This document shows, in pieces, positions 8,426 to 58,789 of a stretch of 64,000 nt of DNA (positions within the stretch are counted from its first letter, which is position 1; each line of letters starts with the position of its first letter). The position numbers were made by a program, and so were the translations under genes. The notes under the pieces were generated by a model. The model did no database searches. It worked only from the letters and a program-made list of their open reading frames with translations, and was not told the origin of the DNA. The DNA is taken from assembly GCF_030384885.1 (NCBI RefSeq), contig NZ_CP128615.1; one strand, given 5' to 3'. The DNA comes from Escherichia coli. Its GTDB lineage: Bacteria; Pseudomonadota; Gammaproteobacteria; Enterobacterales; Enterobacteriaceae.

Positions 8426-8528
8426 AATTAATCATTGCGGTTGATTTATTCTCAAGTTGAACTTAAAGAAATCATGCTTATGTAAATATACTATTAAAAG
8501 ACAAAAAGAAGCCATTTAACCTGGAGGA

Positions 8529-9865: not shown

Positions 9866-10117
9866 CTACTGCTTTATATCGCGTACTGCATGACTAAAAT
9901 CACCATAACCACCCTTCGCAAGCCATTTACTTTTAAATCTGTGAAAGACTCTTCCCATCGGCGAATTATCCAGGTAATTCCCTCTGCGACTCATACTTTG
10001 CATCGTCTCATAACGGCAGAGTAAAATTTTGTATTTATTGCTTTTATATTGAACACCTTGATCTGAATGCAACATCAGGTGGCCATCACGCGGTTGTGTT
10101 TCCTGAGCACTATGCAA
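9866..10117 (-). pseudogene. IS3-family transposase (OrfB) C-terminal fragment
   Basis: [10 protein letters not shown]...[15 protein letters not shown] integrase-core remnant; no intact element. Confidence 0.5.
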
Positions 10118-10177
10118 GTAAACGGCTCAACAGAACAGTATTGATATTTACTGAGCGGCCAGATCAACTTTTCAGGG

Positions 10178-11383
10178 TTACAGATCGCGTACCAGGTTTG
10201 CCGACCAGTCCTGGATATGTTCAATGCCGTAACACAGCCATTTTTCCAGCTCCACATTATTCAGACGGCATGTGCCGATCAGCGAGTACAGCACCGCCGC
10301 ATGTTCGCCACCACTGCCGGAACCCGCGAAGAGCCAGTTCTTCCGGCCTATGGCCACTCCCCGTAAGGCGTTCTCTGCGATGTTGTTGTCGATTTCCACC
10401 CAACCATTACTGCAGTACACGTTCCGAGCATCCCGCTACTGCAGCAGGTATGCAAACGCTTTTGCCGTATCCGAGTGACGCGCCAGTGTTTTCATCTGAG
10501 TCTGTATCCAGTCGTACAGTGACTGCATCAGTGGCGCAGGTCTGGCTTTTCTTGCCGCCAGACGCTGTTCTGCTGAACAGCCCCGGACCGCAACCTCGAT
10601 GGCATACAGTTCACTGATACGCTGCAGGGCTTCCATGGTGACGTCGGTTGGCGCTCTTGCATGCACATCGTGGATTTTTCTCCGGGCATGGGCCATACAC
10701 GCGGCTTCCGTTATTCTGCCTGATTCGTATAACGCCCGGTAGCCACCGTAAGCATCGGCTTGAAACACACCGCTGTAACCGGCCAGGTGATTTTGTGAAT
10801 GGATACCTTTCCAGCCGGACTGTACGCGAACCAGACCGCCGGGGGCATCTCCGAGCCGGCATCACGGTCATCACGGACGTAGCACCACTGCCGGACGGTT
10901 CGAGTTTTACCGGCCATCAGCACATACTGGCGCAGTATGTTATACAGCAGCTCCAGTAGTTCGCAACGGAACAGATCCAGCGTGGCACGCCTCAGCTACA
11001 CGCCCTGGCGACGGTATATTTCTGACTCGCGGTATAATGGCAGATGGTCTGCATATTTCCCGGTGACTACATGGGCCTAAAGCCCCGGTCCGGAATAACT
11101 GCTGAAGGCTCAGGTGTCTGCACGATATAGTTGCACCGGCAACAGGCCTGTTTCGGGCGTTGTGTTTCGATAACCTTAAAGGTGCAGCTGATAAGCTCTA
11201 GCAGCTCTGACACATTACACCCCAGAGGGCTGAGCTCACCACCACAGGCCGGGCAGCATTCCTCTTCCGGCCGGATGACCCTGGCTTCATAGGGAAGTGA
11301 GGCTGGTAACGATTTACGGGCTGAAGACTGGCGCAGGGAAGATGGCAGTGCCGGGTCATATTGCTCACCAGTGTTTCTGCCAT
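10178..11383 (-). pseudogene. IS66-family transposase (TnpC) remnant, multiple frame breaks, interrupted by IS3
   Basis: Adjacent ORF pieces (10178-10420, 10436-10768, 10711-10923, 11198-11383) with IS66 TnpC-like sequence in different frames. Confidence 0.6.
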
Positions 11384-11663: not shown

Positions 11664-12479
11664 CTAAGCGAGGTTCTTGTTTTCAAATTGTTCCGGACTG
11701 AGGCCGCCACACCAACTGTGCCGCCGCCACCGATTGTAATCACATTCGATATAATTAAACACCGTTGCCCGCATTATTTCCCGGCTGATAAAGTGTTCTC
11801 CATGGATACATTCCACTTTCAGCGAATGAAAGAAGCTTTCCACGCAGGCATTATCGTAGCAGCAACCTTTTGCGCTCATACTTCCACGCAGATTATGCCG
11901 CTTCAGTTGCGCCTGATAATCTGCTGAACAGTACTGGCCTCCACGGTCCGTGTGAACGATAACGTTCCAGGGCCTCTTACGCCGCCATAGCGCCATCTGC
12001 AGGGCATCGCAGGCCAGTTGCGCCGTCATGCGTGGCGACATTGACCAGCCAATAACGGCACGTGACCACAGGTCAATGACCACTGCCAGATACAGCCAGC
12101 CTTCATCTGTACGTAAGTACGTGATGTCTCCTGCCCACTTCTGGTTCGGGCCACTGGCGTAAAAATCCTGCTCCAACAGATTTTCTGACACAGGCAGGCC
12201 GTGTGCGCGGTAGCTGACCGGGCTGAACTTCCGGGAGGCCTTTGCCCTCAGTCCCTGACAGCGCAGGCTTGCCGCCACGGTTTTTACGTTAAAGGGGTAA
12301 CCCTGAGCACGCAGTTCATCCGTCAGGCGTGGGGCACCGTAACGCTGTTTTGACCGGGTAAAAGCCGCGAGGACAACGCTGTCGCAGTGTTGGCGGAACT
12401 GCTGACGCGTGCTTATCCTTGTCCGCCGCTGACACCACGTATACCAGCCGCTGCGGGCCACCCGGAGCACGCGGCACAT
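11664..12479 (-). CDS. insF: IS3 OrfB (InsF-type DDE transposase catalytic subunit)
   Basis: 271-aa ORF with DDE integrase core (WAGDITY...HTDRGGQY...). Confidence 0.9.
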
Positions 12480-12526
12480 TGCTTTGATGCTGAACTCAGC
12501 CTGATGTTTTTCAATAAAGACTTACT

Positions 12527-12835
12527 TCATTTCAGGCGCTTCGCGAAGTATGTCGCGGCCTTTTGGAGGATAGCCAGCTCTTCATCCCGTTCTGCCAGCT
12601 GGCGTTTGAGACGTGCAATCTCGGTAGACATCTCCAGTTCACGTTCAGAAGACGTCTGCTGATTTTGCTGTTTACTGCGCCAGTTGTAGAGCTGTGATTC
12701 ATACAGGCTGAGTTCACGGGCTGCGGCAGTAACACCGATGCGTTCAGCAAGCTTCAGGGCTTCACTGCGAAATTCAGGCGAATGCTGTTTACGGGGTTTT
12801 TTACTGGTTGATACTGTTTTTGTCATGTGAGTCAC
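12527..12835 (-). CDS. insE: IS3 OrfA (InsE-type transposase DNA-binding subunit)
   Basis: 102-aa ORF, HTH and leucine-zipper region typical of IS3 OrfA. Confidence 0.9.
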   Translation of the reverse strand: MTHMTKTVSTSKKPRKQHSPEFRSEALKLAERIGVTAAARELSLYESQLYNWRSKQQNQQTSSERELEMSTEIARLKRQLAERDEELAILQKAATYFAKRLK

Positions 12836-13735
12836 CTCTGACTGAGAGTTTACTCACTTAGCCGCGTGTCCACTATTGCTGGGTAAGATCACTCTGGCGC
12901 AACGTCTGGCTGATTGCCCGGCTTCGTAATTCAATTCTTTGTACATAAACAGGACGCTTCACCTGCGCGCAATAAACGGTACGGTGAACACCGAATAAAT
13001 AACAAAGAATCCGCACTGGCCGCTTTGCCTTCAGCCGTGTGCTTAGTCCGACAAGTTTTGAGCATGCATTGAGAAAAACTCCGTTCCGTATGCCTTCATG
13101 AGTCTAATCCATTGAAATCAGCGATAGCTGTGATGAACTGTTTAGTGCTAAAACAGCACTACAATTTAACCTATACAACAATTAGGCGTACAATTTATTT
13201 TATGTTAAATTCAGTTTTATGTATCTGATTGCTTAATGTTCAAGTATTTAGATATTAGATAACACAGAATAACTCTTGTTTGGTATTTATTTTTTAGACG
13301 CTAGTCATTTAAAAAATGATAACTATAAGAATAATCACAAATTTAAACAACAATAAAAGTTATAGTTTTCAATGTCTTAATAAACCATGTTAACAATTTA
13401 TGCTTTATTCAATTCATTACATTTTCTTTAAGAATTTTCACGTTTAAAATAAAAAAATCATCACGGACAGGAGGTGTTTAGTTTATAGCTCAAAGAATTA
13501 ACATGATGATAACATCAGCGCAACCATTCTTTCTCCTTTTTGTTTTGATTTAACATAAAGGATTTTAGAATTTTAAAATCAAATAATGCTAAATAATAAA
13601 ATTGGAAAATAACACTTATTTTTCATCATAAAAATACCCATAAAATGGGGGGGGGGCAGCATTCATTATAATAAACAATATAAACTCCGACTTTGTGCTT
13701 GCCCTCAAAAAGAGGGCTTCTTTTAAGAAGATGAT

Positions 13736-13924
13736 ATGACAGATAATGAAAAAATAGACCTGATGATAAAAGAGATAAAATCTGTTATTTTAAAAAGGAC
13801 GGGAGAAGATAGCAAGGTAAGTATTGTAGAAATTGATGGTTGCAGGCGTATAAATATTTTAATAGATAACATATCAAGTTATCTAATTAAATTTTCAGAG
13901 CATCAAAACAACCAAATCACATAA
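13736..13924 (+). CDS. Hypothetical protein
   Basis: 62-aa ORF in AT-rich island. Confidence 0.25.
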   Translation: MTDNEKIDLMIKEIKSVILKRTGEDSKVSIVEIDGCRRINILIDNISSYLIKFSEHQNNQIT

Positions 13925-26885: not shown

Positions 26886-27677
26886 TTATGCGTGTCTGTT
26901 TTTCAGCATTGTGACAGCATCGGACTCAGGCATCGAAAACTGCACCCGGTGCCGTGCAGCCACATCCAGCGCAAACACCTTCGTGTACACCTCTGTCGAA
27001 CTAATCGACTTGTGCCCCATCAGGCTCTGCAGCACCTTCAGCGGAATACCAGCATACAGCATATGCATCGCGTAGGAATGGCGGAAAGTATGTGGGGTAA
27101 CCGGAACAGAGAACGTCACGCCGTCGGCCGCAGCGGCCTCTACAGCTTCATTCAGCCAGGTGCGAACTGTGCGGTCGGTGATTCCCCAGATGCGCGCCTT
27201 CTCCATTCTTCCGGTTCGTTTGTTTCTGCGCTCCAGTGGGATTTTCAGCGTGGCCACCATCATCTGCAGTTGGCTGACGTATTGTGTATCGGACAGGGGA
27301 ACCAGGCGATGCACCTGACTGCCAGCAGGGACACGGCCTGCCGTTCTGGTCGCTTTTTCAGTCCGTTGTTTGAGCGTGGCCAGCTGTACGAACGGATATG
27401 GCGGCGCCAGAGAAAAATCTCCCCGCGTCAGCGCCAGCGCTTCGTTTATACGTGCGCCCGTGTTCCACAGGGTGGCCAGCAACATTTTGCGGTGCAGATC
27501 CGGTACATAGTGGAGCAGGGCGCTGATCTCCGGCGCCAACAGATATTTTGGTAATTCGTCCTGCACAAGTGCCATCTGACGTAGTGCCAGCGCAGCCGGG
27601 TAATCAATGGCAACAGGTAATGTTGCCGGAGGCGTTAAAAAAGAACCTGGCAGGGAAAGCAATTGTGGGCCACTCAT
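26886..27677 (-). CDS. Tyrosine site-specific recombinase (candidate multimer resolvase)
   Basis: 263-aa ORF with HTFRHSYAMH...LMGH...Y catalytic region; paralog of int at 1263-2003. Confidence 0.8.
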   Translation of the reverse strand: MSGPQLLSLPGSFLTPPATLPVAIDYPAALALRQMALVQDELPKYLLAPEISALLHYVPDLHRKMLLATLWNTGARINEALALTRGDFSLAPPYPFVQLATLKQRTEKATRTAGRVPAGSQVHRLVPLSDTQYVSQLQMMVATLKIPLERRNKRTGRMEKARIWGITDRTVRTWLNEAVEAAAADGVTFSVPVTPHTFRHSYAMHMLYAGIPLKVLQSLMGHKSISSTEVYTKVFALDVAARHRVQFSMPESDAVTMLKNRHA

Positions 27678-28105
27678 GATGTCCCCTTTATGAAATCCTC
27701 AATCTCTTGCTCGGTCTTTTTAGACTTCTTTACCATTTCGTACTCCTTTTGGAGTGTTTTACCTCTGGCTTTCAACAATACCAACCTCGTTGGCGATAGT
27801 GTATCGGAAAGGCCGTGCAGAGGGAGGCCACATAACATTCTCAGTTCTCGTGATAACCGCAGTGCTTTTACTCCCAACATAGCTGCGTTTTTATGCAAAC
27901 TATATTCACCCGCTCCACCATAAGGAGTATCTTCAACAAACACATTATCTACACACACGACAGCTTCGTAGCTGAGAACAGAGAGTTCGCTGAGCCTATA
28001 CATCAGGCCAGAAGGAAGGGAGCGCCAGTTACCAGATACCGGGGAATAATCGATTTCCGGTAATAAGAACTCAGCTTCTCCTCTGCCATCCTGATCGTGC
28101 TCCAC
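27674..28105 (-). pseudogene. Gene of unknown function, N-terminus truncated by IS26
   Basis: ORF reads across the IS26 left inverted repeat at 28106; 4-bp overlap with the recombinase start. Confidence 0.5.
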
Positions 28106-28927
28106 AGGGCACTGTTGCAAATAGTCGGTGGTGATAAACTTATCATCCCCTTTTACTGATGGAGCTGCACATGAACCCATTCAAAGGCCGGTATTTTCAG
28201 CGTGACATCATTCTGTGGGCCGTACGCTGGTACTGCAAATACGGCATCAGTTACCGTGAGCTGCAGGAGATGCTGGCTGAACGCGGAGTGAATGTCGATC
28301 ACTCCACGATTTACCGCTGGGTTCAGCGTTATGCGCCTGAAATGGAAAAACGGCTGCGCTGGTACTGGCGTAACCCTTCCGATCTTTGCCCGTGGCACAT
28401 GGATGAAACCTACGTGAAGGTCAATGGCCGCTGGGCGTATCTGTACCGGGCCGTCGACAGCCGGGGCCGCACTGTCGATTTTTATCTCTCCTCCCGTCGT
28501 AACAGCAAAGCTGCATACCGGTTTCTGGGTAAAATCCTCAACAACGTGAAGAAGTGGCAGATCCCGCGATTCATCAACACGGATAAAGCGCCCGCCTATG
28601 GTCGCGCGCTTGCTCTGCTCAAACGCGAAGGCCGGTGCCCGTCTGACGTTGAACACCGACAGATTAAGTACCGGAACAACGTGATTGAATGCGATCATGG
28701 CAAACTGAAACGGATAATCGACGCCACGCTGGGATTTAAATCCATGAAGACGGCTTACGCCACCATCAAAGGTATTGAGGTGATGCGTGCACTACGCAAA
28801 GGCCAGGCCTCAGCATTTTATTATGGTGATCCCCTGGGCGAAATGCGCCTGGTAAGCAGAGTTTTTGAAATGTAAGGCCTTTGAATAAGACAAAAGGCTG
28901 CCTCATCGCTAACTTTGCAACAGTGCC
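28106..28927 (+). mobile_element. IS26, no flanking target-site duplication
   Basis: Terminal repeats GGCACTGTTGCAAA (28106) and TTTGCAACAGTGCC (ends about 28927); flanks CTCCACAG versus CCACCCAT. Confidence 0.95.
28171..28875 (+). CDS. tnpA: IS26 transposase Tnp26
   Basis: MNPFKGRYFQRDIILWAVRWYCKYGISYRELQEM... recognised. Confidence 0.95.
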   Translation: MNPFKGRYFQRDIILWAVRWYCKYGISYRELQEMLAERGVNVDHSTIYRWVQRYAPEMEKRLRWYWRNPSDLCPWHMDETYVKVNGRWAYLYRAVDSRGRTVDFYLSSRRNSKAAYRFLGKILNNVKKWQIPRFINTDKAPAYGRALALLKREGRCPSDVEHRQIKYRNNVIECDHGKLKRIIDATLGFKSMKTAYATIKGIEVMRALRKGQASAFYYGDPLGEMRLVSRVFEM

Positions 28928-29454
28928 CCACCCATCTGTTTGTGTCGGTACTCTGAGGGGGCATGGGGCAAAAACCTGAAAAAGGTATTCGCCTGGCTGC
29001 CCCGCTCCGGGCGAAAATGAAGGTACAGCGACGGGATGAATAGCACTTTTTGCTAAAGGAATATCAACAATAGCATGCTATAGTTACTTTAATGGGTAGC
29101 TGCGCCATTGACAATGGTGTGGTTTTCTGTTAACATTACTTTCATAGTATTGTTCCGTCCCGCTCCACTCCAACAAATCCGTTTATTTCCCGCCAGACCG
29201 GTTATCACCATTCCGGCCCGGATTTTTTTGGATTTTTTTCCGGGGAGCACCCGGGACGAGCTTAAAATCGGTATGACAGACAGGAGGATGCGAATGAACA
29301 CATCATAGCAGAATTGAAAGAGAAAACATTCTGTACGGTATCAACAGCGTTCACGTGTGTGAGGCGCCGGGTGCCTTTTATCTGAAAAAAGAGGTCAAGA
29401 AGATGATCAAGATTAACACATCAGTGTTAACAACAACCTGCCCAGGAGGGCTTT

Positions 29455-29799
29455 ATGAAAAATTTGTTCGACACCGAGGGAACGGTTCTATTCCCATTCC
29501 AGACTGAAATCCATTTTATCTGGACGATTTACACCACAGCTAAAACCCTTTACGTCAGTGCCTGTGGGCACATCGGACAGAAGCAATACTGGAGCGCCTG
29601 TCTCTGTATTTTGCTTCTTATGGCCTACGTGGGTCTCTGTGCTGCGGTGGTCTGGGCTGTAGTGCCCTGGCTTAAGGCCTTTATTGTGTCGAAATTTGCG
29701 GTTTCAGCACTCTGGGTCACGCCAGTAAAGAGTTTGTTGCTCAGGGGTATCGGTAAGATGGTGGGGGCCATCTGCCGAAAGTTTACTCTATTAAAGTAA
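29455..29799 (+). CDS. Hypothetical membrane protein
   Basis: 114-aa ORF with AGGAGGG RBS and two hydrophobic helices. Confidence 0.4.
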   Translation: MKNLFDTEGTVLFPFQTEIHFIWTIYTTAKTLYVSACGHIGQKQYWSACLCILLLMAYVGLCAAVVWAVVPWLKAFIVSKFAVSALWVTPVKSLLLRGIGKMVGAICRKFTLLK

Positions 29800-29972
29800 G
29801 AGCAGCAAGCTACACCAACGGATGGTGAATGTCAACAGGCATTCACCATCTCCTTACGGCGGTGGTCCCTGTGGCCACTGCCGCTTTCGCGCGGGTGTAA
29901 CACGGCAAAACTCCTCTGTACAACAGGGGCTCCCGCCGTCATTTTCCGGCACAGGTGAGGCCGGAATTGGAA

Positions 29973-30974
29973 CTAAAACGTAAACCGCGGGCCTGTCCGG
30001 TAGCGTTCACTATCGGCCAGCATTCTCTCAACCAGAGAGAAATCCTTTTCACCGCAGAACACGTACTGCTCCGCGAACTCCACCTGCAGGGCGTTGTAAT
30101 GCGTGACATGATCCGGGGTAAGCGGCATGAAAAGATAGTCCGTATACCTCCGGATATGTTCCAGTCTTTCAAAAGGCCGAATGTGACGGGGGATAAGATG
30201 CGGCGCTCTGGCAAGCAGATTGTGAAGATGCTGCTTTTGACGAATCATCTGTTCACGGATGGAGGGGCAATACATGGCCAGCATCAGCGTCGATGACAGG
30301 GGGAGGTAAATCTGTATCCCGCGAACGGCCAGACCAAGATTACCGTACGGACCGAAGTCATTGCTGTTCTTAAGCACGACGGGATTGTCTGATACGTAAA
30401 ACGGACTTTCTGGCCTGGTTTCCAGAAGGTACCAGTCCTTTTTCAGCAGGTGATCAATATGTGACATCTGCTGGACGAGCTGCCGCAGAAAAATATCCTT
30501 GGTATCGCCCCCGGACGACAGGCCCAGGGTTTCCAGGGCCTGCTCTTTAGTCGAGCCGATTGCCTCCATCTTATCGGTGAGCACCGAAATCATGCCTGAG
30601 ATACGCTCCAGTTCGCCGAAGGTTCGTGCGCGCTGCACGGCAACAAACACGGCCAGCCTGTAGCGTTCGTCATCTGTCAGCCTGCGAATATCCCTGTGCG
30701 CCAGCAGGGCTGCAATTACCGGTGCCGCGTGGTGCTCGTAAATCCCCAGCAGTGGTTCAAGACTCAGACGGTCCGGGTGATTTTCGAGGTTGTAGAACGT
30801 GTTGCGGACGGTTGCATCATCCGGCGTGGTGGCATAGGCGCGCCCTGCAGCCTTGTCAAAGGCGTATAAACGCTGACGCTTACCCTTTCCCGGCGTACTG
30901 AAATGCTTCAGTAAAAAACGGGGAACCGTATGCTGTCTGACCACATCGGTCTGCAGATTGACTGAATCGGCCAT
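29973..30974 (-). CDS. DUF4238-like protein (candidate defence-island gene)
   Basis: Start taken at the ATG at 30974 with GGAGA RBS; N-terminal HTVPRFLLKHF resembles the H-x-V/I-P-x-F-Y/L-L-K/R-x-F signature I associate with DUF4238. Confidence 0.45.
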   Translation of the reverse strand: MADSVNLQTDVVRQHTVPRFLLKHFSTPGKGKRQRLYAFDKAAGRAYATTPDDATVRNTFYNLENHPDRLSLEPLLGIYEHHAAPVIAALLAHRDIRRLTDDERYRLAVFVAVQRARTFGELERISGMISVLTDKMEAIGSTKEQALETLGLSSGGDTKDIFLRQLVQQMSHIDHLLKKDWYLLETRPESPFYVSDNPVVLKNSNDFGPYGNLGLAVRGIQIYLPLSSTLMLAMYCPSIREQMIRQKQHLHNLLARAPHLIPRHIRPFERLEHIRRYTDYLFMPLTPDHVTHYNALQVEFAEQYVFCGEKDFSLVERMLADSERYRTGPRFTF

Positions 30975-31179
30975 AACTTTATCTCCCTGAAAAGCCACGC
31001 AGGCGCACCGGTGCATCTGTATTGACGGCATGGGCAGCTGGTTTGCGGCATAACATTAGAAAACAGAACCGTTCGATAATACCTGTGTTTAACACCCTGT
31101 CAGTACTGATGAAATTTAAATCTCCGATTATAGCTTTTTTCGGATCTCAGCAGAAAAAAGACAGAAGTGTGTATAGGTT

Positions 31180-31270
31180 TGGCATATGCGTACCCCTGCC
31201 ATCTGCATATGCTATATCTATACATATGCCGATCATCTGCATATACTGAGCATATGTATAAAGGCCGGTC
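31180..31270. promoter_or_regulatory. vapBC-1 promoter/operator repeats
   Basis: Repeated CATCTGCATAT / GCATATG motifs upstream of vapB. Confidence 0.45.
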
Positions 31271-31285
31271 GGCCAGGAGGAAATA

Positions 31286-31516
31286 ATGAGAACCGTATCC
31301 ATTTTTAAAAACGGCAATAACCGCGCCATCCGTCTGCCCCGCGATCTTGATTTTGAGGGGGTGAGCGAGCTGGAGATCGTCCGGGAAGGGGACAGCATCA
31401 TCCTACGCCCCGTCCGGCCGACCTGGGGCTCGTTCGCGAAGCTCGAAAAAGCTGACCCGGACTTTATGGCGGAGCGCGAGGACGTTGTCACCGACGAAGG
31501 ACGGGTTAACCTGTGA
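31286..31516 (+). CDS. vapB: VapB antitoxin (AbrB/SpoVT fold), copy 1
   Basis: 76-aa ORF MRTVSIFKNGNNRAIRLPRDLDFEG...; 4-bp overlap with vapC. Confidence 0.85.
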   Translation: MRTVSIFKNGNNRAIRLPRDLDFEGVSELEIVREGDSIILRPVRPTWGSFAKLEKADPDFMAEREDVVTDEGRVNL

Positions 31517-31929
31517 ACAAAACGTATATGCTGGACACCAACATCTGCTCTTTCATCATGCGCGAGCAGCCGGAAGCCGTCCTGAAGCGCCTGGAGCAGG
31601 CGGTGCTGCGTGGCCACCGTATCGTGGTCTCGGCCATCACTTATTCCGAAATGCGCTTCGGGGCTACCGGCCCGAAGGCCTCGCCGCGCCACGTGCAGCT
31701 GGTTGACGCGTTCTGCACCCGCCTCGATGCCATCCTGCCCTGGGATCGCGCCGCGGTGGACGCGACCACGGAGATTAAGGTGGCGCTGCGCCTCGCCGGG
31801 ACGCCGATCGGCCCGAACGACACGGCGATTGCCGGACACTCCATCGCCGCCGGTGCCGTGCTGGTGACGAATAATACGCGGGAATTTGAACGGGTACCGG
31901 GTCTTGTGCTGGAAGACTGGATAAGATAA
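31513..31929 (+). CDS. vapC: VapC PIN-domain toxin, copy 1
   Basis: 138-aa ORF with PIN acidic residues (MLDTNICSF, ...TNNTREFERV). Confidence 0.85.
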   Translation: MNKTYMLDTNICSFIMREQPEAVLKRLEQAVLRGHRIVVSAITYSEMRFGATGPKASPRHVQLVDAFCTRLDAILPWDRAAVDATTEIKVALRLAGTPIGPNDTAIAGHSIAAGAVLVTNNTREFERVPGLVLEDWIR

Positions 31930-32002: not shown

Positions 32003-33565
32003 ATGCCTCTGATCACGCGGCTTATGCTGCAAAACTTTAAAAAGTTTCCGGAACTGGACCTGCGCTTCACTCATGACCGTAACATTCTGGTCGGGGATAA
32101 TGAGTCCGGGAAAAGCACGATTCTGCTGGCCCTTGACCTTGTGCTGAGCGACAGCCGGCACCGGGTCGAGGCATTGGGTGTGGAATCGCTCCTGTCCCAG
32201 TCAGCAGTCAGGCAGTTTCAGGAAGGTGAGCGCCGCGCCGATCGGTTACCCGTGCTGACAGCTGATGTTTTCCTGAGTAATGGGGGAGATCCTGACCTGA
32301 ACGGCAGGCAAAATCTGGCGGGTATCGATGCGGATGGTCTCAGAATGCGCATTGCACCCATGACGGAGGAATACGGTCAGGATATACATCATGTCCTGCA
32401 GCAGGATCCCGATAATTTTCCCTATGAATACTATTCCGTGCGGTTCAGCACCTTCTCCGGGGGGCATTTTGCCGGCTTCAGACGCTATCTGCGCCATCTG
32501 CTGTTAGACAGTGCACGCATCGATAACGAGCACGCCGCACAGGAATATACGCGCACAGTTTACAGCGTCAATGTGCCGGTAGCCGATCGGTACCGGCTTG
32601 AAAACAGTTACCGGCAACAGAAAATGCACTTCTGCACCCGGCATCTGTCAGCCATAAACGACACGCTGGATACGTATCAGTTTGGCGTGCGTTCCGGTGC
32701 TAAATCAGGTCTTGAGGCGAATCTGGACATTACCGAGGACGGTATTTCCATTCGTCACCGTGGAAAAGGAAGGCAGTGCTTCATCAAAACAGAGTTTGCA
32801 CTGCAGCGGCATCAGCAGCAGGGAGAGCTCCACGCACTGTTGCTTGAGGAGCCGGAGAATCATCTCAGCCATGTCAGTATGAAGAGGCTGGTTAATCAGC
32901 TTGCAACTGAACGGCAGACGCAGGTGTTTATTGCCACACACAGCAGCCATATCTCATCCCGCCTCGATCTGCGTAAGGCAATCCTCCTCGGGTCTGCCCG
33001 ACCGGTACTGATGAATGAACTTTCCGCTGAGACTGCCGCCTTCTTCATGAAAGCACCGGACAATAATGTGCTGGAATTTGCGCTGGCCAGACGTGTGCTG
33101 CTCGTGGAGGGGGATGCTGAGTTTATTCTGATCGAGGCCTTTTATCGCCGCCTGTATGGCAGGTCGCCGGAGGATGACGGGGTTCACATCATCGCTATCG
33201 GCGGAACGAGTTTCCGTCGTTATCTTGAACTGGCCCGTCTTCTGGAAAATCGCGTCGCGGCCCTTCGTGATAATGACGGCAACTATCAGCAAAACTGCGA
33301 TGAACGCTATGCTGACGTGCTTTGTTCCCGCTCCCGGGTATTTGCTGATCGCGATAACACCCGATCCACATTTGAAATCTGCCTGTATCAGGATAACGCT
33401 GGTCTGTGTGATGCGCTTTTCCGCGGAACACGCCGGACACTCACGGTGCAGGAATACATGCTGGCCAATAAGGCAGAAGCAGCATTCCGGCTGTTACAGC
33501 TGCACGCCGAAGAGCTGACAGTACCTGATTATATTCAGGAGGCACTGGCATGGATAAGAGAGTGA
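32003..33565 (+). CDS. OLD-family ATPase/TOPRIM nuclease (GajA-like)
   Basis: Walker A GDNESGKST, Walker B-like LLLEEPENH, H-loop IATHSSH, TOPRIM-like LLVEGDAEF and ALRDNDG. Confidence 0.65.
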   Translation: MPLITRLMLQNFKKFPELDLRFTHDRNILVGDNESGKSTILLALDLVLSDSRHRVEALGVESLLSQSAVRQFQEGERRADRLPVLTADVFLSNGGDPDLNGRQNLAGIDADGLRMRIAPMTEEYGQDIHHVLQQDPDNFPYEYYSVRFSTFSGGHFAGFRRYLRHLLLDSARIDNEHAAQEYTRTVYSVNVPVADRYRLENSYRQQKMHFCTRHLSAINDTLDTYQFGVRSGAKSGLEANLDITEDGISIRHRGKGRQCFIKTEFALQRHQQQGELHALLLEEPENHLSHVSMKRLVNQLATERQTQVFIATHSSHISSRLDLRKAILLGSARPVLMNELSAETAAFFMKAPDNNVLEFALARRVLLVEGDAEFILIEAFYRRLYGRSPEDDGVHIIAIGGTSFRRYLELARLLENRVAALRDNDGNYQQNCDERYADVLCSRSRVFADRDNTRSTFEICLYQDNAGLCDALFRGTRRTLTVQEYMLANKAEAAFRLLQLHAEELTVPDYIQEALAWIRE

Positions 33566-34572
33566 TATTTGCGGTTGCCGGCTCGGGCAAGACCACGCTG
33601 CTGATACAGCGGTTGAGTGAGGACCGGCGGACGCTGATCCTGACCTTCACCGTGAATAATGAAGCGCATCTCCGGGCGCAGATTATCAGACGTTTTGGCT
33701 TTATCCCGGACGGGATCAGGGTGATGACCTGGTTTGAGTTTCTGCACGGTTTTTGCTTCAGGCCTTTCCTGCAGGAGCAGCTGGCATCGCGTGGGCTGAG
33801 CTTCGACCAGCCCCCACCCAGAATACCGCGCACGAATGCCCGGCATTATCAGGATCCCGCCGGACGGCTGTATCACCGGAGGCTCGCACACTTACTCACA
33901 GCCCGGGGGCTGCTGCCAGATATCCGTACCCGGCTTGCCCGTTACTACGATGAACTGCTTGTCGATGAAGTCCAGGACTTTGCCGGACATGACTTTAATT
34001 TTCTGCTGGAGCTCTGCCGCGCGGAAATCACTGTGCTCTGTTGCGGCGATTTTTATCAACATACCTTTGATACAAGCCATGACGGCAACGTTAATTCAAC
34101 GCTGCACGATGACATTACGCGATATGAGGCCCGCTTCGACGCAGCAGGTTTCACGGTTGACCGGGACACGCTCAACCGGACATGGCGTTGCTCAGCTTCA
34201 GTGTGCGAGTTTATCACCGGACAACTGAACATCCGTATCGCTGCCCATGGGATACATGCCACCCTGATTGAAACGATCACAGATGCAGAGCGCACAGCCA
34301 CCCTGCACGCCGATAATACGGTGATTAAGCTCTTCTATCGTGAACATCACCGTTACGGCTGCTATTCCATGAACTGGGGCGTCAGTAAAGGGCTCGACCA
34401 CTTTCAGGATGTCTGCATTGTGATGGGATCTTCCCACTGGAAGCTTCTGACCCGTCAGGAACTGGCAGCCCTTCCACCGTCGTCCCGTAACAGGCTGTAC
34501 GTGGCATGCTCACGGGCGCGCGGCAACATTTATTTTGTTCCCGAAATTCATCTGCGCCGATTCCGGAACTGA
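33550..34572 (+). CDS. Compact SF1/UvrD-like helicase (GajB-like)
   Basis: Motifs AVAGSGKTT (I), LLVDEVQD (II), GDFYQ (III), YVACSRAR (VI); 16-bp overlap with the upstream nuclease gene. Confidence 0.6.
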   Translation: MDKRVIFAVAGSGKTTLLIQRLSEDRRTLILTFTVNNEAHLRAQIIRRFGFIPDGIRVMTWFEFLHGFCFRPFLQEQLASRGLSFDQPPPRIPRTNARHYQDPAGRLYHRRLAHLLTARGLLPDIRTRLARYYDELLVDEVQDFAGHDFNFLLELCRAEITVLCCGDFYQHTFDTSHDGNVNSTLHDDITRYEARFDAAGFTVDRDTLNRTWRCSASVCEFITGQLNIRIAAHGIHATLIETITDAERTATLHADNTVIKLFYREHHRYGCYSMNWGVSKGLDHFQDVCIVMGSSHWKLLTRQELAALPPSSRNRLYVACSRARGNIYFVPEIHLRRFRN

Positions 34573-34861
34573 GTCAGCTGCTTCTCAGTCGGGCACAATT
34601 CAGAAATAAAGCTGTATGGCCAACGATGTCACTTCAGGCTGGAAAAGTGCGGATCCGGTTTTGCCTTTTTTCGGATCTGAGCGGGAAAAGTGAGAAACCA
34701 ACATAGGTGTAACATATCCATATGCCGGGCATCTGCATAGGCAAAGCATACGCATATACCTACCATCTGCATATGTAACACCTATACAAGCCGGGCTTGC
34801 AGGCATATACTTCACCTATGCGGGAATACTCCCTGGCACACTCAGCATATGAGGAAAAACC

Positions 34862-35092
34862 ATGCGCACAGTTTCGATATTTAAAAACGGCAATAACCGC
34901 GCCATCCGTCTGCCCCGGGACCTGGATTTTGATGGCGTCAGCGAGCTGGAGATCGTCCGGGAAGGGGACAGCATCATTCTGCGTCCCGTCCGGCCGACCT
35001 GGGGCTCGTTCGCGCAGCTGGACAGGGCCGATCCGGACTTTATGGCGGAGCGTGAGGATGTGGTCAGCGATGAAGGACGCTTTGAGCCATGA
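34862..35092 (+). CDS. vapB: VapB antitoxin, copy 2 (diverged paralog)
   Basis: 76-aa ORF MRTVSIFKNGNNRAIRLPRDLDFDG...; own CATCTGCATAT operator repeats upstream (about 34700-34850). Confidence 0.85.
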   Translation: MRTVSIFKNGNNRAIRLPRDLDFDGVSELEIVREGDSIILRPVRPTWGSFAQLDRADPDFMAEREDVVSDEGRFEP

Positions 35093-35505
35093 AGAAAACC
35101 TGGATGCTCGACACCAACATCTGCTCGTTCATCATGCGCGAGCAGCCGGCAGCGGTGCTGAAGCGCCTGGAGCAGGCGGTGCTGCGCGGTGATCGCATTG
35201 TGGTCTCGGCCGTGACGTATGCCGAGATGCGCTTCGGCGCCACCGGCCCGAAGGCCTCGCCGCGCCATATTCAGCTGGTCGACGCGTTCTGCGCGCGCCT
35301 CGATGCCGTCCTGCCCTGGGACCGCGCCGCGGTGGACGCCACGACGGACATCCGGGTGGCGCTGCGCCTAGCCGGGACGCCGATCGGCCCGAATGACACG
35401 GCCATTGCCGGGCACGCCATCGCGGCGGGCGCCATCCTGGTGACGAACAATGTGAGAGAGTTTGCGCGGGTCCCGGGCCTGGTGCTGGAAGACTGGGTGA
35501 AATAA
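35089..35505 (+). CDS. vapC: VapC PIN-domain toxin, copy 2
   Basis: 138-aa ORF, clear paralog of copy 1. Confidence 0.85.
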   Translation: MKKTWMLDTNICSFIMREQPAAVLKRLEQAVLRGDRIVVSAVTYAEMRFGATGPKASPRHIQLVDAFCARLDAVLPWDRAAVDATTDIRVALRLAGTPIGPNDTAIAGHAIAAGAILVTNNVREFARVPGLVLEDWVK

Positions 35506-35546
35506 TCCCGTAATAATTTCCGTGACGGAGACGACAGACATGAATG

Positions 35547-36566: not shown

Positions 36567-37960
36567 GTAATAATGCCGATGTCAGTCTTTACCACCACTT
36601 AGTTTGCCGTTTAACCAGATTGGTGTGATTACTGATGCAGTGAAGACCTTCCCGCATCCTGACTCACACAGCGATCGACCTTTTGTGTCCTGCCCTGGAC
36701 CCGTCGGTTGCCGGAAGCGCCTTCATGCGAGGCATCTCCTCACCGATGCGCGTGACTCAAGAAGGGCCTGACGGCTTGTCTCGTTACTGTCCTGTCCGGG
36801 TTATCTGTCTGGAGATTCAACTCTGTTTCCTCACAGGAGCTCTGTCATGGTTGATAAAGTTACCGAAGCTGCCGTTGTGGGTGGCGTGGATACACATAAA
36901 GATTTGCACGTTGCCGCTGTCGTAGATCAGAACAATAAAGTCCTTGGGACTCAGTATTTCTCCACAACACGACAAGGTTACCGGCAGATGCTGGCATGGA
37001 TGACCTCGTTTGGGACATTAAAGCGAATTGGTGTTGAGTGCACAGGTACCTATGGTTCCGGTTTGCTTCGTTATTTTCAGAACGCCGGGTTAGAAGTTCT
37101 TGAGGTGACTGCTCCAGACCGGATGGAGCGACGCAAACGGGGTAAAAGTGACACAATTGATGCTGAATGTGCCGCTCATGCAGCATTCTCAGGCATCAGG
37201 ACAGTTACTCCCAAAACGCGTGATGGCATGATTGAGTCCCTGCGGGTATTAAAAACTTGCCGAAAAACAGCAATATCAGCCCGCAGAGTCGCTCTCCAGA
37301 TTATCCATTCAAATATTATCTCTGCCCCGGATGAATTACGTGAACAGCTCAGAAATATGACGCGCATGCAGCTCATCAGGACCCTGGGTTCCTGGAGACC
37401 TGATGCCAGTGAATACCGCAATGTAACCAACGTTTATCGCATTTCATTAAAGTCCCTTGCCCGACGCTATCTCGAGTTACATGACGAAATCGCTGATCTG
37501 GATGTCATGATTGCGGCAATTGTCGACGAGTTGGCACCTGAGCTGATTAAACGTAATGCTATCGGATACGAAAGCGCTTCACAGTTGCTGATCACTGCCG
37601 GAGACAATCCTCAACGGTTAAGATCAGAATCAGGATTTGCGGCACTGTGTGGTGTCAGCCCGGTCCCCGTTTCTTCTGGAAAAACGAACCGTTACCGACT
37701 TAATCGTGGTGGAGATCGTGCTGCAAATAGTGCACTTCACATCATCGCCATCGGACGCTTACGAACTGACGCAAAAACAAAGGAATATGTCGCCAGGCGT
37801 GTAGCCGAAGGACATACAAAAATGGAAGCGATACGCTGTCTAAAGCGATATATCTCCCGCGAAGTTTACACGTTACTGCGCAATCAAAACAGGCGGATCA
37901 ACAGTATCCCGATAACAGCTTGACTCTTAGAAGGGCGTCCAGGGCAGTCAGTATGGCAGT
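36567..37960 (+). mobile_element. IS110-family insertion sequence (boundaries approximate)
   Basis: Insert splitting the IS3-family orfB; carries an IS110-type transposase; no terminal inverted repeats, as expected for the family. Confidence 0.55.
36847..37923 (+). CDS. IS110-family transposase
   Basis: 358-aa ORF with N-terminal VGGVDTHKDLHVAAV motif. Confidence 0.8.
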   Translation: MVDKVTEAAVVGGVDTHKDLHVAAVVDQNNKVLGTQYFSTTRQGYRQMLAWMTSFGTLKRIGVECTGTYGSGLLRYFQNAGLEVLEVTAPDRMERRKRGKSDTIDAECAAHAAFSGIRTVTPKTRDGMIESLRVLKTCRKTAISARRVALQIIHSNIISAPDELREQLRNMTRMQLIRTLGSWRPDASEYRNVTNVYRISLKSLARRYLELHDEIADLDVMIAAIVDELAPELIKRNAIGYESASQLLITAGDNPQRLRSESGFAALCGVSPVPVSSGKTNRYRLNRGGDRAANSALHIIAIGRLRTDAKTKEYVARRVAEGHTKMEAIRCLKRYISREVYTLLRNQNRRINSIPITA

Positions 37961-38325: not shown

Positions 38326-40401
38326 TCAATTAACCCCAAGCGCCTTAAACACGGCATCGACGGGGTCTGCATAAAAGCTGATCTGGAATTTTGAGAACAA
38401 CTCAGCAGGAACCGTTGGAATATCTGAGGCTGAGGCCATTGGGAGCAAAATACGCTTTGCGCCACTGTCCATAGCTAACTGAAGACTGCCTGCAAGATCT
38501 TGAACAGGATTGACGACACCACCTAAAGTCATCTCACCCAAAACAACCATCTGCTCTTGAATCGGTCGGTTCATCAGAATTGAACAGAACGCAATTAATG
38601 CAGCGAGCGATGACTTTGTACTTGGCCCCGTATTGTGGAGCTCAACAACATGGAGGTGATACTCATGATCAGAAAACTTCGCCGACGCACTGATTCTATT
38701 CAGGTTACCTTTGAAATAATCAAAGCCAACACGCACAGCTTCTTTCGCTGCGGTATTCGAACCAAGGCCAGACACTGAGTGTTTACCAGAACCAGCCATC
38801 ATCTGGGTTTCATAGCGATATAACCCAAGCTGCCCAGTGCTTCCCTGAGTAACCAAGTGCACGACACCAGCGCGAGGTAAGCCCTCAGGAATTAGCTTGC
38901 TGCCACCTTGTTCCGGTACATTGATGAAGAATTCTTCTAATGAATCGTTATCGATGTAGCTAAAGTGCACATCAAAAAATTCCATTCCGCCAAGCTTTTT
39001 CAATTGCTCTTTGACTCTACGTCTAGTTTCCAGCGCATAGGTCAGGCAGGCTCTTACATCATCTTTTGTGTACTGTGCGTCGGGGTGTAGTAGCTTTAAC
39101 AAGCCCGAAACAGTTCTGCGTACAGCAATTACATCACGCTGATTAAGGTTATTACCGAGTTTGAAGAACTTATCGATAGCATCCGCAAAACTTCTTTTGC
39201 GCATTTCACGCATGTATTCAGCAAGATAGTCTGTGATTAATCCGTAACTATTGGTGAAAAACTCAGGACGCATCTTCGGTATTTCCCATCCAGGAATATA
39301 GGAATGGAAACGGTCAAAAAAAGCAGTGTCAATCATGGCTTCAGGAAAAGGTGCCAACAGATGACTGGTCTTCACCAGTGTCTCAACGCTTTGATTGATG
39401 TTACCGACGAATACCATGGAAGCCTTCGCTTCGATTGAATCACGACCACGGGCAAAAGACCCTGACGCCATATAATCTTTCATTATTTGGACGCCGTCTT
39501 TGTCTTTAAAGTTAATACCCGCTACTTCATCAAAGGCGACAACATCCCACATTCCGACCAACCCAACTTGGCGCGAGCTCATGTTATAGAACAAGTTCGC
39601 CACAGTTGTTTGTCCGCCCGAGACAAGCAATGAGTTTGGTGAGCACTCCTTGTAGACATGGCTTTTACCTGTCCCTCTTGGTCCGAGCTCACAAACGTTG
39701 TAGTTGTTTTCAACGAATGGGATCATACGAGTGATAAGATGCCATTTCACCCGATGCTCTAAGTTGGTTGGCTCCATACCCACGGAACGAAGCAACACAT
39801 CCATCCACTGATCGGTACTAAAATGTCTTCTGGTTGAAAACACCTCATCCATGTTCATGGACGGCATTTGTATCGGTTTTAAACTCATAATGGAGAAAGG
39901 TGATGTCTTCTGACCTTCCTCAAAGAAATACTGGACGGTAATAATGCACCAGATGCCGCCAGTTAATAATTTTTCGTTGTCTTGTACTATTTTGGTCGGT
40001 ACAAGGGCATCCTTGATACCCAGGTTCGACAACGCAGCTTCATAGACGTCTTTTTTCTGGTTGAGCTTAACGCTTACTTTGTCGATGATTTTAAACGTGC
40101 CGCGTTCACGGATCAGTGACTTCACTTTCTCCGCTTCATCTGGTCGGACATAGTTCTCAGCCAAGATTTTTTTTACATTATCAAGGCCTTGCATTACAAC
40201 TTCGTCGTCATCGGACGCACAATACATGCCTAGTAAATACTCAAGCACATAGACAGGGACGTTAGCGCCTTCTTTCAATTGCTTTGTCAGATCTTTTCGA
40301 ACGACACGGCCTTTAAAATATTGGTTGAGCAATGCGTCTAAATCGGCGCTTTGCATCTGATTTTTTTCGTCTTTATGATCTTGTGAAAAATCAGTTGTCA
40401 T
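38326..40401 (-). CDS. brxL: BrxL (BREX Lon-like protease/ATPase)
   Basis: 691-aa ORF, last gene of the BREX operon; P-loop GPRGTGKSH and C-terminal Lon-protease-like domain. Confidence 0.85.
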   Translation of the reverse strand: MTTDFSQDHKDEKNQMQSADLDALLNQYFKGRVVRKDLTKQLKEGANVPVYVLEYLLGMYCASDDDEVVMQGLDNVKKILAENYVRPDEAEKVKSLIRERGTFKIIDKVSVKLNQKKDVYEAALSNLGIKDALVPTKIVQDNEKLLTGGIWCIITVQYFFEEGQKTSPFSIMSLKPIQMPSMNMDEVFSTRRHFSTDQWMDVLLRSVGMEPTNLEHRVKWHLITRMIPFVENNYNVCELGPRGTGKSHVYKECSPNSLLVSGGQTTVANLFYNMSSRQVGLVGMWDVVAFDEVAGINFKDKDGVQIMKDYMASGSFARGRDSIEAKASMVFVGNINQSVETLVKTSHLLAPFPEAMIDTAFFDRFHSYIPGWEIPKMRPEFFTNSYGLITDYLAEYMREMRKRSFADAIDKFFKLGNNLNQRDVIAVRRTVSGLLKLLHPDAQYTKDDVRACLTYALETRRRVKEQLKKLGGMEFFDVHFSYIDNDSLEEFFINVPEQGGSKLIPEGLPRAGVVHLVTQGSTGQLGLYRYETQMMAGSGKHSVSGLGSNTAAKEAVRVGFDYFKGNLNRISASAKFSDHEYHLHVVELHNTGPSTKSSLAALIAFCSILMNRPIQEQMVVLGEMTLGGVVNPVQDLAGSLQLAMDSGAKRILLPMASASDIPTVPAELFSKFQISFYADPVDAVFKALGVN

Positions 40402-57040: not shown

Positions 57041-57041
57041 A

Positions 57042-58758: not shown

Positions 58759-58789
58759 CCCGCATGGCATAGGCCTATCGTTTCCACGA

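What the first reader, a model, noticed from the sequence alone, without database searches (positions are those of the whole stretch)
29973..30974. Stand-alone DUF4238-like gene at the edge of the defence island
Seen: a 333-codon ORF with a clear GGAGA RBS and N-terminal motif HTVPRFLLKHF, on the opposite strand from the vapBC/Gabija-like genes and about 260 bp from the vapB-1 operator, next to IS26. Inference: by motif memory this resembles DUF4238, a domain of unknown function that recurs in defence islands. Its position at the start of a run of defence genes (vapBC, OLD/helicase, BREX) makes it a candidate single-gene defence or abortive-infection factor.
Basis: inference. Interest (0 to 1): 0.6.

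Follow-up and report, generated by a model that had tools for sequence, protein, structure and literature searches.

The report
DUF4238 gene beside classical ColIb abi
The ORF is a real, well-conserved DUF4238 gene from a family already shown to block phage T7, and it turns out to be the fixed neighbour of ibfA/abi, the 1960s–80s ColIb plasmid locus that aborts phage T5/BF23 infection and whose products and mechanism are still unresolved.

Summary
A 333-codon minus-strand ORF (29973–30974) has a GGGAGA ribosome-binding site and matches Pfam DUF4238 end to end (E = 1.6e-42). It is under purifying selection (dN/dS about 0.16).

A DUF4238 single-gene system from a P2 prophage hotspot is already validated against T7 (Rousset 2022), so the kind is known. 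This protein belongs to a divergent clade:
- It is 19–26% identical to the validated protein.
- Profile–profile homology is 98.2% probability.
- The PADLOC defence model misses it (12.5 bits against 718 for the prototype).
- The two share an invariant H15/R117/D196/N294/F312 set.
- The AlphaFold model is excellent (pLDDT 96), but no solved structure resembles it.

Its 5′ side is a variable defence hotspot on IncF/IncI plasmids. Cargo there includes Gabija+BREX (this window), GmrSD, Ppl, RES and AAA_13; a more distant homologue on a T4SS plasmid lies beside CBASS.

The convergent 114-aa ORF (29455–29799) is the homologue of ColIb-P9 ibfA/abi. The whole 2.2-kb module is 91% identical to ColIb-P9, and the DUF4238 proteins are 96% identical.

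This is a new member of a known defence family. It is also a testable candidate for ibfB or for the T7-inhibition gene of the classical ColIb Abi system. The mechanism remains inferred.

The parts
29973..30974 (-). DUF4238 coding sequence (333 aa, 38.5 kDa, pI 8.7, no hydrophobic segment)
   Evidence: ORF list and translation. Pfam DUF4238 E = 1.6e-42, full length. dN/dS 0.12-0.17. 96.1% identical to the ColIb-P9 protein WP_000774874.1. AF2 model pLDDT 96.3.
30982..30987 (-). Ribosome-binding site GGGAGA, 7 nt upstream of the ATG
   Evidence: Read directly from the sequence.
31076..31103 (-). Promoter-like site (CTGACA, 16 nt, TATTAT; 10 of 12 matches), about 100 nt upstream of the ATG and inside the conserved module
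   Evidence: Consensus scan. The stretch up to 31126 is conserved with ColIb-P9. Function is not shown.
29800..29972 (.). 173-nt structured spacer between the two convergent genes, containing conserved hairpins. Probably bidirectional terminators; an unannotated RNA is not excluded.
   Evidence: MFE -79.2 kcal/mol, z = -4.78. 84% mean identity across four alleles, against about 78% for the window versus the P0021-type allele over the whole 2-kb module. No Rfam match. Single copy.
29455..29799 (+). ibfA/abi homologue: a 114-aa small hydrophobic protein, convergent with DUF4238
   Evidence: 82.5% identical to the product of ColIb-P9 nt 13401-13745, the annotated ibfA. Homologous to Swiss-Prot ABI_ECOLX. 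Intact 114 codons in four alleles, dN/dS 0.30-0.62, hydrophobic core around residues 45-78.
28928..31126 (.). Extent of the conserved ColIb-type module (ibfA + spacer + DUF4238 + its promoter region). The left end is cut by IS26. The right end is the junction with the variable defence cargo.
   Evidence: 91.4% nucleotide identity to ColIb-P9 12072-14272. DUF4238-side plasmid matches end at about 31126-31166, and vapBC-side matches start at about 31170-31286.

Best explanation
The gene encodes a soluble 38-kDa DUF4238 protein. It is the 96%-identical orthologue of the DUF4238 gene that lies beside ibfA/abi in the phage-inhibition region of plasmid ColIb-P9.

I think it most likely is an anti-phage, abortive-infection-type factor with these properties:
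- It is expressed from its own promoter.
- It is independent of the neighbouring vapBC, Gabija and BREX systems.
- It acts through an enzyme-like polar pocket formed by the family-invariant residues H15, R117, D196 and N294.
- By analogy with the validated P2 homologue, the most likely targets are T7-like phages. T5-like phages are a possibility because of the ColIb locus.

The chemistry is unknown. My best guess is hydrolysis of a phosphodiester or nucleotide substrate, that is, a nuclease-like effector triggered by infection.

Shown here: the gene is real and under selection; family membership; homology to the validated defence protein; the shared invariant residues; a confident fold with no solved relative; placement at the fixed edge of a variable plasmid defence hotspot; orthology with the ColIb-P9 ibf/abi region.

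Inferred: the anti-phage activity of this allele, the phage range, the catalytic role of the invariant residues, and the substrate.
For: - Family membership: Pfam DUF4238 E = 1.6e-42.
- Validated relative: a single-gene DUF4238 system gives strong T7 resistance (PMC9122126).
- Homology to it: hhalign of the window clade against the validated clade gives 98.2%, E = 4.7e-14, 257 columns. H15, R117, D196, N294 and F312 are invariant in 118 sequences that include the validated protein.
- Selection: dN/dS is 0.12-0.17.
- Structure: AF2 pLDDT 96.3, pTM 0.93.
- Defence neighbourhoods: Gabija+BREX in this window; GmrSD, RES/HEPN, YobI ATPase, AAA_15/21 and AAA_13; Ppl; type I RM; AbiEii; CBASS and PDC-S39; PDC-S31; Bub-like ubiquitin system, UvrD-PDDEXK and PIN_12 in a Citrobacter chromosome; AIPR.
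- Accessory distribution: the clade is sporadic, found in 16 of about 100,000 species representatives. It is plasmid-borne in E. coli: 302 of 5,426 genomes, 320 of 325 places on plasmids.
- ColIb-P9 link: ColIb-P9 carries the same module next to colicin Ib. Its ibfA at nt 13401-13745 is annotated as inhibiting T5/BF23 (PMC8004404). ColIb genes inhibit T5 and T7 (title of Duckworth & Pinkerton 1988, cited).
Against: - No phenotype exists for this allele or clade.
- The PADLOC defence HMM scores it only 12.5 bits, E = 0.019.
- Identity to the validated protein is only 19-26%, so the phage range and even the function could differ.
- The classical genetics assigns the T5/BF23 phenotype to the neighbouring ibfA, not to this gene.
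- The gene occupies a fixed backbone-like position beside partition and umuDC genes, which would also fit a plasmid-housekeeping role.
Confidence: 0.6

Rival explanations
1. Two-component abortive-infection system. DUF4238 would be the cytoplasmic sensor or activator, possibly the genetically defined ibfB. The convergent 114-aa membrane protein IbfA would be the effector that collapses membrane potential after the phage trigger (T5 pre-early A2) appears.
For: - Both genes are co-inherited at near-constant spacing (143-175 nt) in IncF and IncI plasmids, a Citrobacter chromosomal island and Enterobacter integrative elements.
- The spacer between them is more conserved than the genes.
- ColIb genetics defined two genes, ibfA and ibfB, and the phenotype is loss of membrane potential (PMC10644984). 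That fits a small hydrophobic effector.
- The products are said to be unidentified.
Against: - The genes are convergent, so they are not an operon.
- DUF4238 persists without ibfA in the roughly 82% allele group.
- The validated P2 DUF4238 works as a single gene.
- The most divergent IbfA-like protein has no DUF4238 neighbour.
- More distant DUF4238 homologues have other neighbours.
- The co-conservation could be simple linkage within a young 2-3.5 kb block.
Confidence: 0.25
2. Plasmid or mobile-element housekeeping function unrelated to phage, for example stability, plasmid competition or DNA processing. In that case the defence neighbourhood would only reflect a nearby recombination hotspot.
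For: - The gene has a constant position next to the resolvase-type integrase, ParA, ParM/StbA and umuDC on IncF/IncI backbones.
- It is found almost only on plasmids in E. coli.
- No phage-collection homologue was found by tblastn.
Against: - The same clade occurs in chromosomal islets and defence islands with no plasmid genes.
- The module is a divergent allelic cassette (78% nucleotide identity) inside a 98%-identical backbone. That is typical of genes under conflict-driven turnover.
- Disrupted copies exist (IS26 insertion), so the gene is dispensable.
- A family member is a proven anti-phage gene.
Confidence: 0.12
3. Mechanistic sub-hypothesis: DUF4238 is a highly diverged His-Me (HNH-like) nuclease. 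H15 would be the general base, D196 and N294 the metal ligands, and R117 the phosphate or transition-state contact.
For: - The H-x-x-P motif at the end of strand 1 (QHTVP) has the same spacing as the HNH 'DH-I-V-P' motif. The invariant set H/N/D/R is the residue set typical of His-Me nucleases. Both comparisons are from my own knowledge of those families.
Against: - No HNH Pfam signal in any of 118 members.
- H15 and D196 are 180 residues apart, and the predicted local topology is strand-helix-strand, not a contiguous beta-beta-alpha finger.
- I could not inspect the superpositions or the model coordinates.
Confidence: 0.2

Closest known systems
Rst_DUF4238 (single-gene anti-phage system from a P2-like prophage hotspot, E. 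coli TA007, plasmid pFR101; Rousset et al. 2022)
   Same: - Same Pfam family.
- Homologous over about 257 columns (hhalign 98.2%).
- Shared invariants H, R, D, N, F and the motifs H-x-x-[PS]-x-x-L-K-x-F and [ST]DNPV.
- One soluble protein of about 310-330 aa with no added domains.
- Located in a hotspot of variable defence genes on a mobile element.
   Different: - Only 19-26% identical.
- Fails the PADLOC DUF4238-Pers model (12.5 against 718 bits).
- The window clade has an extra helical insertion of about 40 residues (roughly residues 237-280). The Rst clade has an insertion in the helical bundle instead.
- Carried on conjugative plasmids and ICEs rather than phage.
- Sits at the constant edge of the hotspot rather than being its cargo.
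- Usually accompanied by ibfA.
- Phenotype untested.
ColIb-P9 ibf/abi abortive-infection locus (ibfA, ibfB; T5/BF23, and T7 inhibition)
   Same: The window carries the orthologous 2.2-kb region: 91.4% nucleotide identity to ColIb-P9 12072-14272, DUF4238 96.1% and IbfA 82.5% amino-acid identity. The downstream backbone is also the same (integrase, ParA, ParM, umuDC).
   Different: The gene annotated as ibfA is the neighbouring 114-aa ORF, not DUF4238. In the window, IS26 has removed the genes beyond ibfA, and the colicin Ib side is replaced by vapBC-Gabija-BREX.
TIR-associated DUF4238 systems in E. coli (PMC11350192)
   Same: A DUF4238 domain occurs in an experimentally active anti-phage system.
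   Different: In those systems defence needs a TIR NADase domain. No TIR gene is present next to the window gene.
F-plasmid PifA and R64 IbfA/PifA (plasmid-borne exclusion of T7 and BF23)
   Same: Plasmid-encoded abortive infection of T7-like and T5-like phages. The R64 genes lie in the equivalent variable region of IncI1 plasmids between repZ and rfsF.
   Different: Unrelated proteins. R64 IbfA is an ABC-ATPase-TOPRIM protein (HEC-04-like), and the paper states that it shares no sequence identity with the ColIb gene annotated as ibfA.

Membership tests
Pfam DUF4238 (PF14022) | Significant full-length match to the family HMM | tested here: met
   E = 1.6e-42, 146.3 bits, residues 13-310 on model positions 1-280 of 281. 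All 118 aligned relatives match.
Rst_DUF4238 defence system (DefenseFinder/PADLOC definition) | Match to the system's dedicated HMM (PADLOC PDLC03000, DUF4238-Pers) | tested here: not met
   12.5 bits, E = 0.019, only residues 172-233 aligned. The prototype scores 718 bits.
Rst_DUF4238 defence system | Homology to the validated protein, with conserved core residues | tested here: met
   BLASTP 26% identity over 249 aa, E = 5e-7. hhalign 98.2%, E = 4.7e-14. H15, R117, D196, N294 and F312 are invariant, including in pFR101.
Rst_DUF4238 defence system | A single gene is sufficient for phage resistance (strong against T7) | not testable with these tools
   Needs cloning and plaque assays. Published only for the P2 allele.
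Rst_DUF4238 defence system | Resides in a mobile-element hotspot of variable defence genes | tested here: met
   The 5' flank is variable and carries Gabija/BREX, GmrSD, Ppl, RES, AAA_13, YobI and other genes, while the 3' flank is constant. The hotspot is on plasmids rather than P2 prophages.
ColIb-P9 ibf/abi locus | Orthology with the ColIb-P9 region that carries ibfA | tested here: met
   Window 31126..28928 against NC_002122 12072..14272: 91.4% nucleotide identity. DUF4238 96.1% and IbfA 82.5% amino-acid identity.
ColIb-P9 ibf/abi locus | Being the annotated ibfA/abi gene itself | tested here: not met
   ibfA is nt 13401-13745 (PMC8004404). That corresponds to the neighbouring 114-aa ORF (window 29455-29799), not to the DUF4238 gene.
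ColIb-P9 ibf/abi locus | Being ibfB or the T7-inhibition determinant, or being required for abortive infection of T5/BF23 | not testable with these tools
   The original mapping papers are not held. Needs those maps or new genetics.
HNH / His-Me finger nucleases | Sequence match to an HNH family model | tested here: not met
   No HNH family among the weak Pfam hits of 118 members. No NCBIfam hit.
HNH / His-Me finger nucleases | Structural similarity to HNH proteins | tested here: inconclusive
Type II toxin-antitoxin or other functional unit with the adjacent vapBC | Co-distribution with the partner genes | tested here: not met
   The DUF4238 and vapBC segments match separate sets of plasmids.

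The most novel reading that the evidence does not exclude
DUF4238 is the missing component of the classical ColIb abortive-infection system. It would be either ibfB, acting as the cytoplasmic sensor or activator that works with the small membrane protein IbfA to depolarise T5/BF23-infected cells, or the separate ColIb determinant that inhibits T7. If so, a 50-year-old Abi system whose products are described as unidentified would map onto a widespread, structurally novel defence family. DUF4238 plus IbfA would then be a sensor plus membrane-effector pair that current defence-finding tools miss.
Probability: 0.35. Interest if true: 0.75.

Novelty: new member of a known kind. Interest (0 to 1): 0.55.

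Why it matters
- DUF4238 is one of the few validated single-gene anti-phage families that still has no assigned fold class or mechanism. The confident model here has no solved relative.
- This clade is common on clinically important IncF/IncI plasmids: 716 PLSDB records and 5.6% of complete E. coli genomes. The standard PADLOC model misses it, so plasmid defence repertoires are undercounted.
- Its fixed position marks the edge of a plasmid hotspot where Gabija, BREX, GmrSD, Ppl and other systems are exchanged. That makes it a useful anchor for finding new systems.
- It links a modern defence family to the ColIb ibf/abi locus. That locus has a known trigger (T5 A2) and a known phenotype (membrane depolarisation), but its gene products and mechanism remain unresolved. 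The old question becomes testable with two clones and a few point mutants.

Tried and rejected
- **NCBIfam and PHROGs** scans of the protein gave no usable hit.
- **PDB sequence searches** with the protein and with the 118-sequence profile gave nothing; there was one spurious adiponectin hit.
- **Foldseek against AFDB50**: the 50 best matches shown are all DUF4238 proteins.
- **Pfam scan of all 118 alignment members** for secondary families gave only noise and no HNH signal.
- **Genome-contig scan**: the 118-sequence alignment was too diverse to seed it. The narrower alignment found only 16 loci.
- **tblastn against the phage collection** found no match.
- **A functional unit with vapBC** was rejected, because the two have separate distributions.
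- **The 114-aa ORF**: no Pfam or PADLOC hit. Its identity emerged only from source names in the homology search.
- **Rfam** on the structured spacer gave no credible match. Four sequences are too few for a covariation verdict.
- **A 106-aa convergent ORF** next to a distant homologue (L016) is unrelated to IbfA.
- **Original papers** (Uemura & Mizobuchi 1982; Duckworth & Pinkerton 1988) are not held, so the identity of ibfB and the T7 mapping remain unknown to me.

Full report
**1. The observation**

The window holds a minus-strand ORF at 29973-30974. It has 333 codons and starts MADSVNLQTDVVRQHTVPRFLLKHF. A GGGAGA ribosome-binding site lies 7 nt before the ATG. A sigma-70-like site (CTGACA, 16 nt, TATTAT) lies at 31103-31076.

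An in-frame ATG at 31031 would give 352 aa, but two results favour the 333-aa start. Homologues are 333-334 aa. DNA homology between allele groups begins exactly at 30974.

The surrounding claims hold:
- vapB is 31286-31516 and vapC is 31513-31929, on the other strand.
- A short Gabija pair follows: GajA 32003-33565, PADLOC E = 1.5e-101, and GajB 33550-34572, E = 1.7e-47.
- BREX type 1 runs from brxL (38326-40401, E = 0) to about 52231.
- GCATATGC-type operator palindromes lie at 31170-31260.
- The IS26 transposase is 28159-28875. That is about 1 kb from the stop codon, not directly adjacent.

The gene is real. dN/dS is 0.12-0.17 against three other alleles at dS 0.4-0.67.

**2. What it is**

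Pfam gives a full-length DUF4238 match: E = 1.6e-42, residues 13-310 on model positions 1-280 of 281. NCBIfam and PHROGs add nothing.

The family is large. 2,742 representative clusters match at E below 1e-3, and members have a very uniform length.

In a 118-sequence alignment the invariant residues are H15, R117, D196, N294 and F312. The near-invariant residues are P18, L22, F25, D40, K41, E73, E80, Q114, K179, P198, N203 and Q297.

AlphaFold2 gives an excellent model: pLDDT 96.3, pTM 0.93. It is a mixed alpha/beta protein with a helical bundle inserted between N-terminal and central strands.

No solved structure resembles it:
- There are no PDB sequence hits, even with the profile.
- In Foldseek against AFDB50, the 50 best matches shown are all DUF4238 proteins.

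I treat the HNH result as a weak lead for three reasons. No member shows any HNH sequence signal. No HNH structure appears among the PDB hits. I could not inspect the superpositions.

**3. Relation to what is known about DUF4238**

Rousset et al. 2022 cloned a single DUF4238 gene from a P2-like prophage hotspot (pFR101, E. coli TA007). They found strong resistance to T7. The mechanism is unknown (PMC9122126).

Their panel was lambda, T4, P1, 186, CLB_P2, LF82_P8, AL505_P2 and T7. T5 was not tested.

A 2024 survey still lists Rst_DUF4238 among the systems that cannot be assigned to a known domain family. DUF4238 also occurs in an active TIR-containing system.

The window protein compares with pFR101 as follows:
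- It is 26% identical over 249 residues (E = 5e-7).
- A profile-profile comparison of the two clades gives 98.2% probability, E = 4.7e-14, 257 columns, 19% identity.
- The five invariant residues and both motifs are shared.
- Each clade has its own insertion.
- The PADLOC model built on the validated clade scores the window protein 12.5 bits (E = 0.019) against 718 bits for the prototype.

So this is a divergent clade of a validated defence family, and the PADLOC model (and probably similar narrow models) does not call it.

**4. Context: a plasmid defence hotspot**

The module occurs in 716 PLSDB plasmids, mostly conjugative plasmids of Escherichia, Klebsiella and Salmonella. It occurs in 302 of 5,426 complete E. 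coli genomes, with 320 of 325 places on plasmids. There are at least three allele groups.

The 3′ side is constant across plasmids: a 114-aa ORF, 84-aa and 308-aa ORFs, a resolvase-type integrase, ParA, ParM/StbA and umuDC.

The 5′ side differs from plasmid to plasmid. It carries:
- vapBC+Gabija(+BREX) in this window and in Klebsiella plasmids;
- GmrSD, HEPN/RES with vapBC, a YobI ATPase, AAA_15/21, AAA_13 and colicin Ia;
- Ppl.

DUF4238-side matches end at about 31126-31166. vapBC-side matches begin at about 31170-31286. vapBC is therefore cargo, not a partner.

The module itself is a divergent cassette. It is 78% identical in nucleotides, inside a backbone that is 98% identical.

Outside these plasmids the clade is sporadic, found in 16 of about 100,000 species representatives. 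It sits in islets or islands beside:
- type I RM;
- AbiEii and methylases;
- CBASS, mCpol and PDC-S39 on a T4SS plasmid;
- DUF2971, which is PDC-S31, and FRG;
- a Bub-type ubiquitin-like system, a UvrD-PDDEXK protein and PIN_12 in Citrobacter chromosomes;
- AIPR and PIN_12.

Roughly 12-13 of 17 distinct contexts have a known or candidate defence gene within 10 kb. I did not compute a matched background.

**5. The unexpected part: the ColIb ibf/abi locus**

The convergent 114-aa ORF (29455-29799) has no Pfam or PADLOC hit. It does keep an intact 114-codon frame in four alleles (dN/dS 0.30-0.62), and it has a hydrophobic core around residues 45-78.

Its homologues are named 'abortive infection protein', and one of them is Swiss-Prot ABI_ECOLX.

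ColIb-P9 (NC_002122) has the following layout:
- colicin Ib at 8294-10174;
- DUF4238 at 12224-13225;
- the Abi match at 13533-13751 on the opposite strand.

[quoted passage not shown] That interval encodes a 114-aa protein 82.5% identical to the window ORF. The two DUF4238 proteins are 96.1% identical. Window 31126-28928 aligns to ColIb-P9 12072-14272 at 91.4%.

The literature available to me says the following (PMC10644984):
- ColIb+ cells abort T5 and BF23 infection.
- The locus is called ibf or abi and comprises ibfA and ibfB.
- The trigger is the T5 pre-early product A2.
- The outcome is loss of membrane potential and death.
[quoted passage not shown]'

So the DUF4238 gene belongs to a family proven active against T7, and it is the fixed neighbour of the gene annotated for T5/BF23 inhibition, on a plasmid reported to inhibit both phages.

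**6. Are the two genes a unit?**

Evidence for a unit:
- They co-occur at 143-175 nt spacing in IncI and IncF plasmids, a Citrobacter island and Enterobacter integrative elements inserted at three different chromosomal sites.
- The spacer is strongly structured (MFE -79 kcal/mol, z = -4.8).
- The spacer is more conserved than the genes (84% against about 78%).

Evidence against a unit:
- The genes are convergent.
- The roughly 82% allele group has DUF4238 without ibfA.
- The P2 homologue acts alone.
- A 46%-identical IbfA-like protein has no DUF4238 neighbour.
- More distant DUF4238 genes have other neighbours.

I therefore rank 'independent single-gene factor' above 'obligate pair', but the pair model remains open.

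**7. Mechanism**

The protein is soluble, with pI 8.7 and no hydrophobic segment. It has one compact domain and five invariant residues drawn from four distant segments, which is the pattern of an active or ligand-binding site.

The set H, D, N, R, the H-x-x-P motif at the end of the first strand and the weak HNH-annotated structural neighbours are compatible with a metal-dependent phosphodiesterase or nuclease. This is inference, and I give it about 0.2.

The following are inferred, not shown: that the protein defends against phage (0.6 overall), which phages it targets, and whether it kills the host.

**8. Verdict**

The kind is already known, so this is a new member, from a divergent clade, of the DUF4238 defence family.

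Three things raise its value:
- the unsolved fold and mechanism;
- its role as the anchor of a plasmid defence hotspot;
That link makes an old question directly testable.

Noticed in passing
window 29455-29799 (+): A 114-aa hydrophobic ORF, convergent with DUF4238, is the homologue of ColIb-P9 ibfA/abi (82.5% identity). It is annotated 'abortive infection protein' or 'hypothetical' in GenBank records and has no Pfam, PADLOC or NCBI-curated family.
   Followed up: yes
window 29800-29972: The 173-nt spacer between the convergent genes folds very stably (-79 kcal/mol, z = -4.8). It is more conserved across alleles than the flanking genes, with near-invariant hairpins GGCAGTGGCCACAGGGACCACCGCC and GGTGAAT..CTGTTGACATTCACC. 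There is no Rfam match. It could be a bidirectional terminator or an unannotated RNA.
   Followed up: partly
P0482 (Swiss-Prot ABI_ECOLX) versus L054 (NC_002122) 13401-13800: The 89-aa Swiss-Prot Abi sequence has a 17-residue N-terminal extension and ends early at 'VVPC', compared with the 114-aa ORF in the complete ColIb-P9 sequence. The extension is in another frame in the complete sequence. This probably reflects frameshift errors in the 1988 sequence, so the database entry is likely wrong at both ends.
   Followed up: partly
window 34737-35513: A second vapBC-like copy lies downstream of the Gabija pair. It matches the first-copy region of the near-identical plasmid at about 85% nucleotide identity.
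   Followed up: no
window 28108-28927 and 27674-28180: IS26 abuts the module at 28928. It has replaced the 84-aa and 308-aa ORFs that follow ibfA in ColIb-P9 and in most other plasmids and integrative elements. Those two ORFs have no Pfam hit and always travel with the module.
   Followed up: partly
L008/L038: 8912-9898 next to 10001-11005: In Pectobacterium and Pantoea a DUF2971 gene (PADLOC candidate PDC-S31, E = 2.3e-51) lies about 100 nt upstream of the 60%-identical DUF4238 gene, on the same strand. This is a possible two-gene arrangement in that sub-clade.
   Followed up: partly
L054 11026-11873; also L003 4710-5557 and L004 6672-7513: A 196-aa plus roughly 85-aa gene pair of unknown function recurs between the colicin/ProQ side and DUF4238 on ColIb-type plasmids. 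It is another candidate for the unassigned ibfB.
   Followed up: no
L005 2567-6361: A 1,264-aa YobI-ATPase gene sits in the same hotspot. It may correspond to the 1,273-aa protein that Hiley et al. (PMC8004404) link to the Salmonella phage-type change to U307.
   Followed up: no
window 32003-34572: The Gabija pair is a short variant: GajA is 520 aa and GajB is 340 aa, with a 16-nt overlap between the genes. It matches dedicated short PADLOC sub-models end to end.
   Followed up: partly
window 36847-37923 and 55935-63887: An IS110-family transposase lies between Gabija/vapBC-2 and BREX. Beyond BREX there are an IS5-family transposase, an EamA-like transporter, tet(A)/tetR and a Tn3-family transposase. 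The defence run is therefore flanked by resistance transposon material.
   Followed up: no
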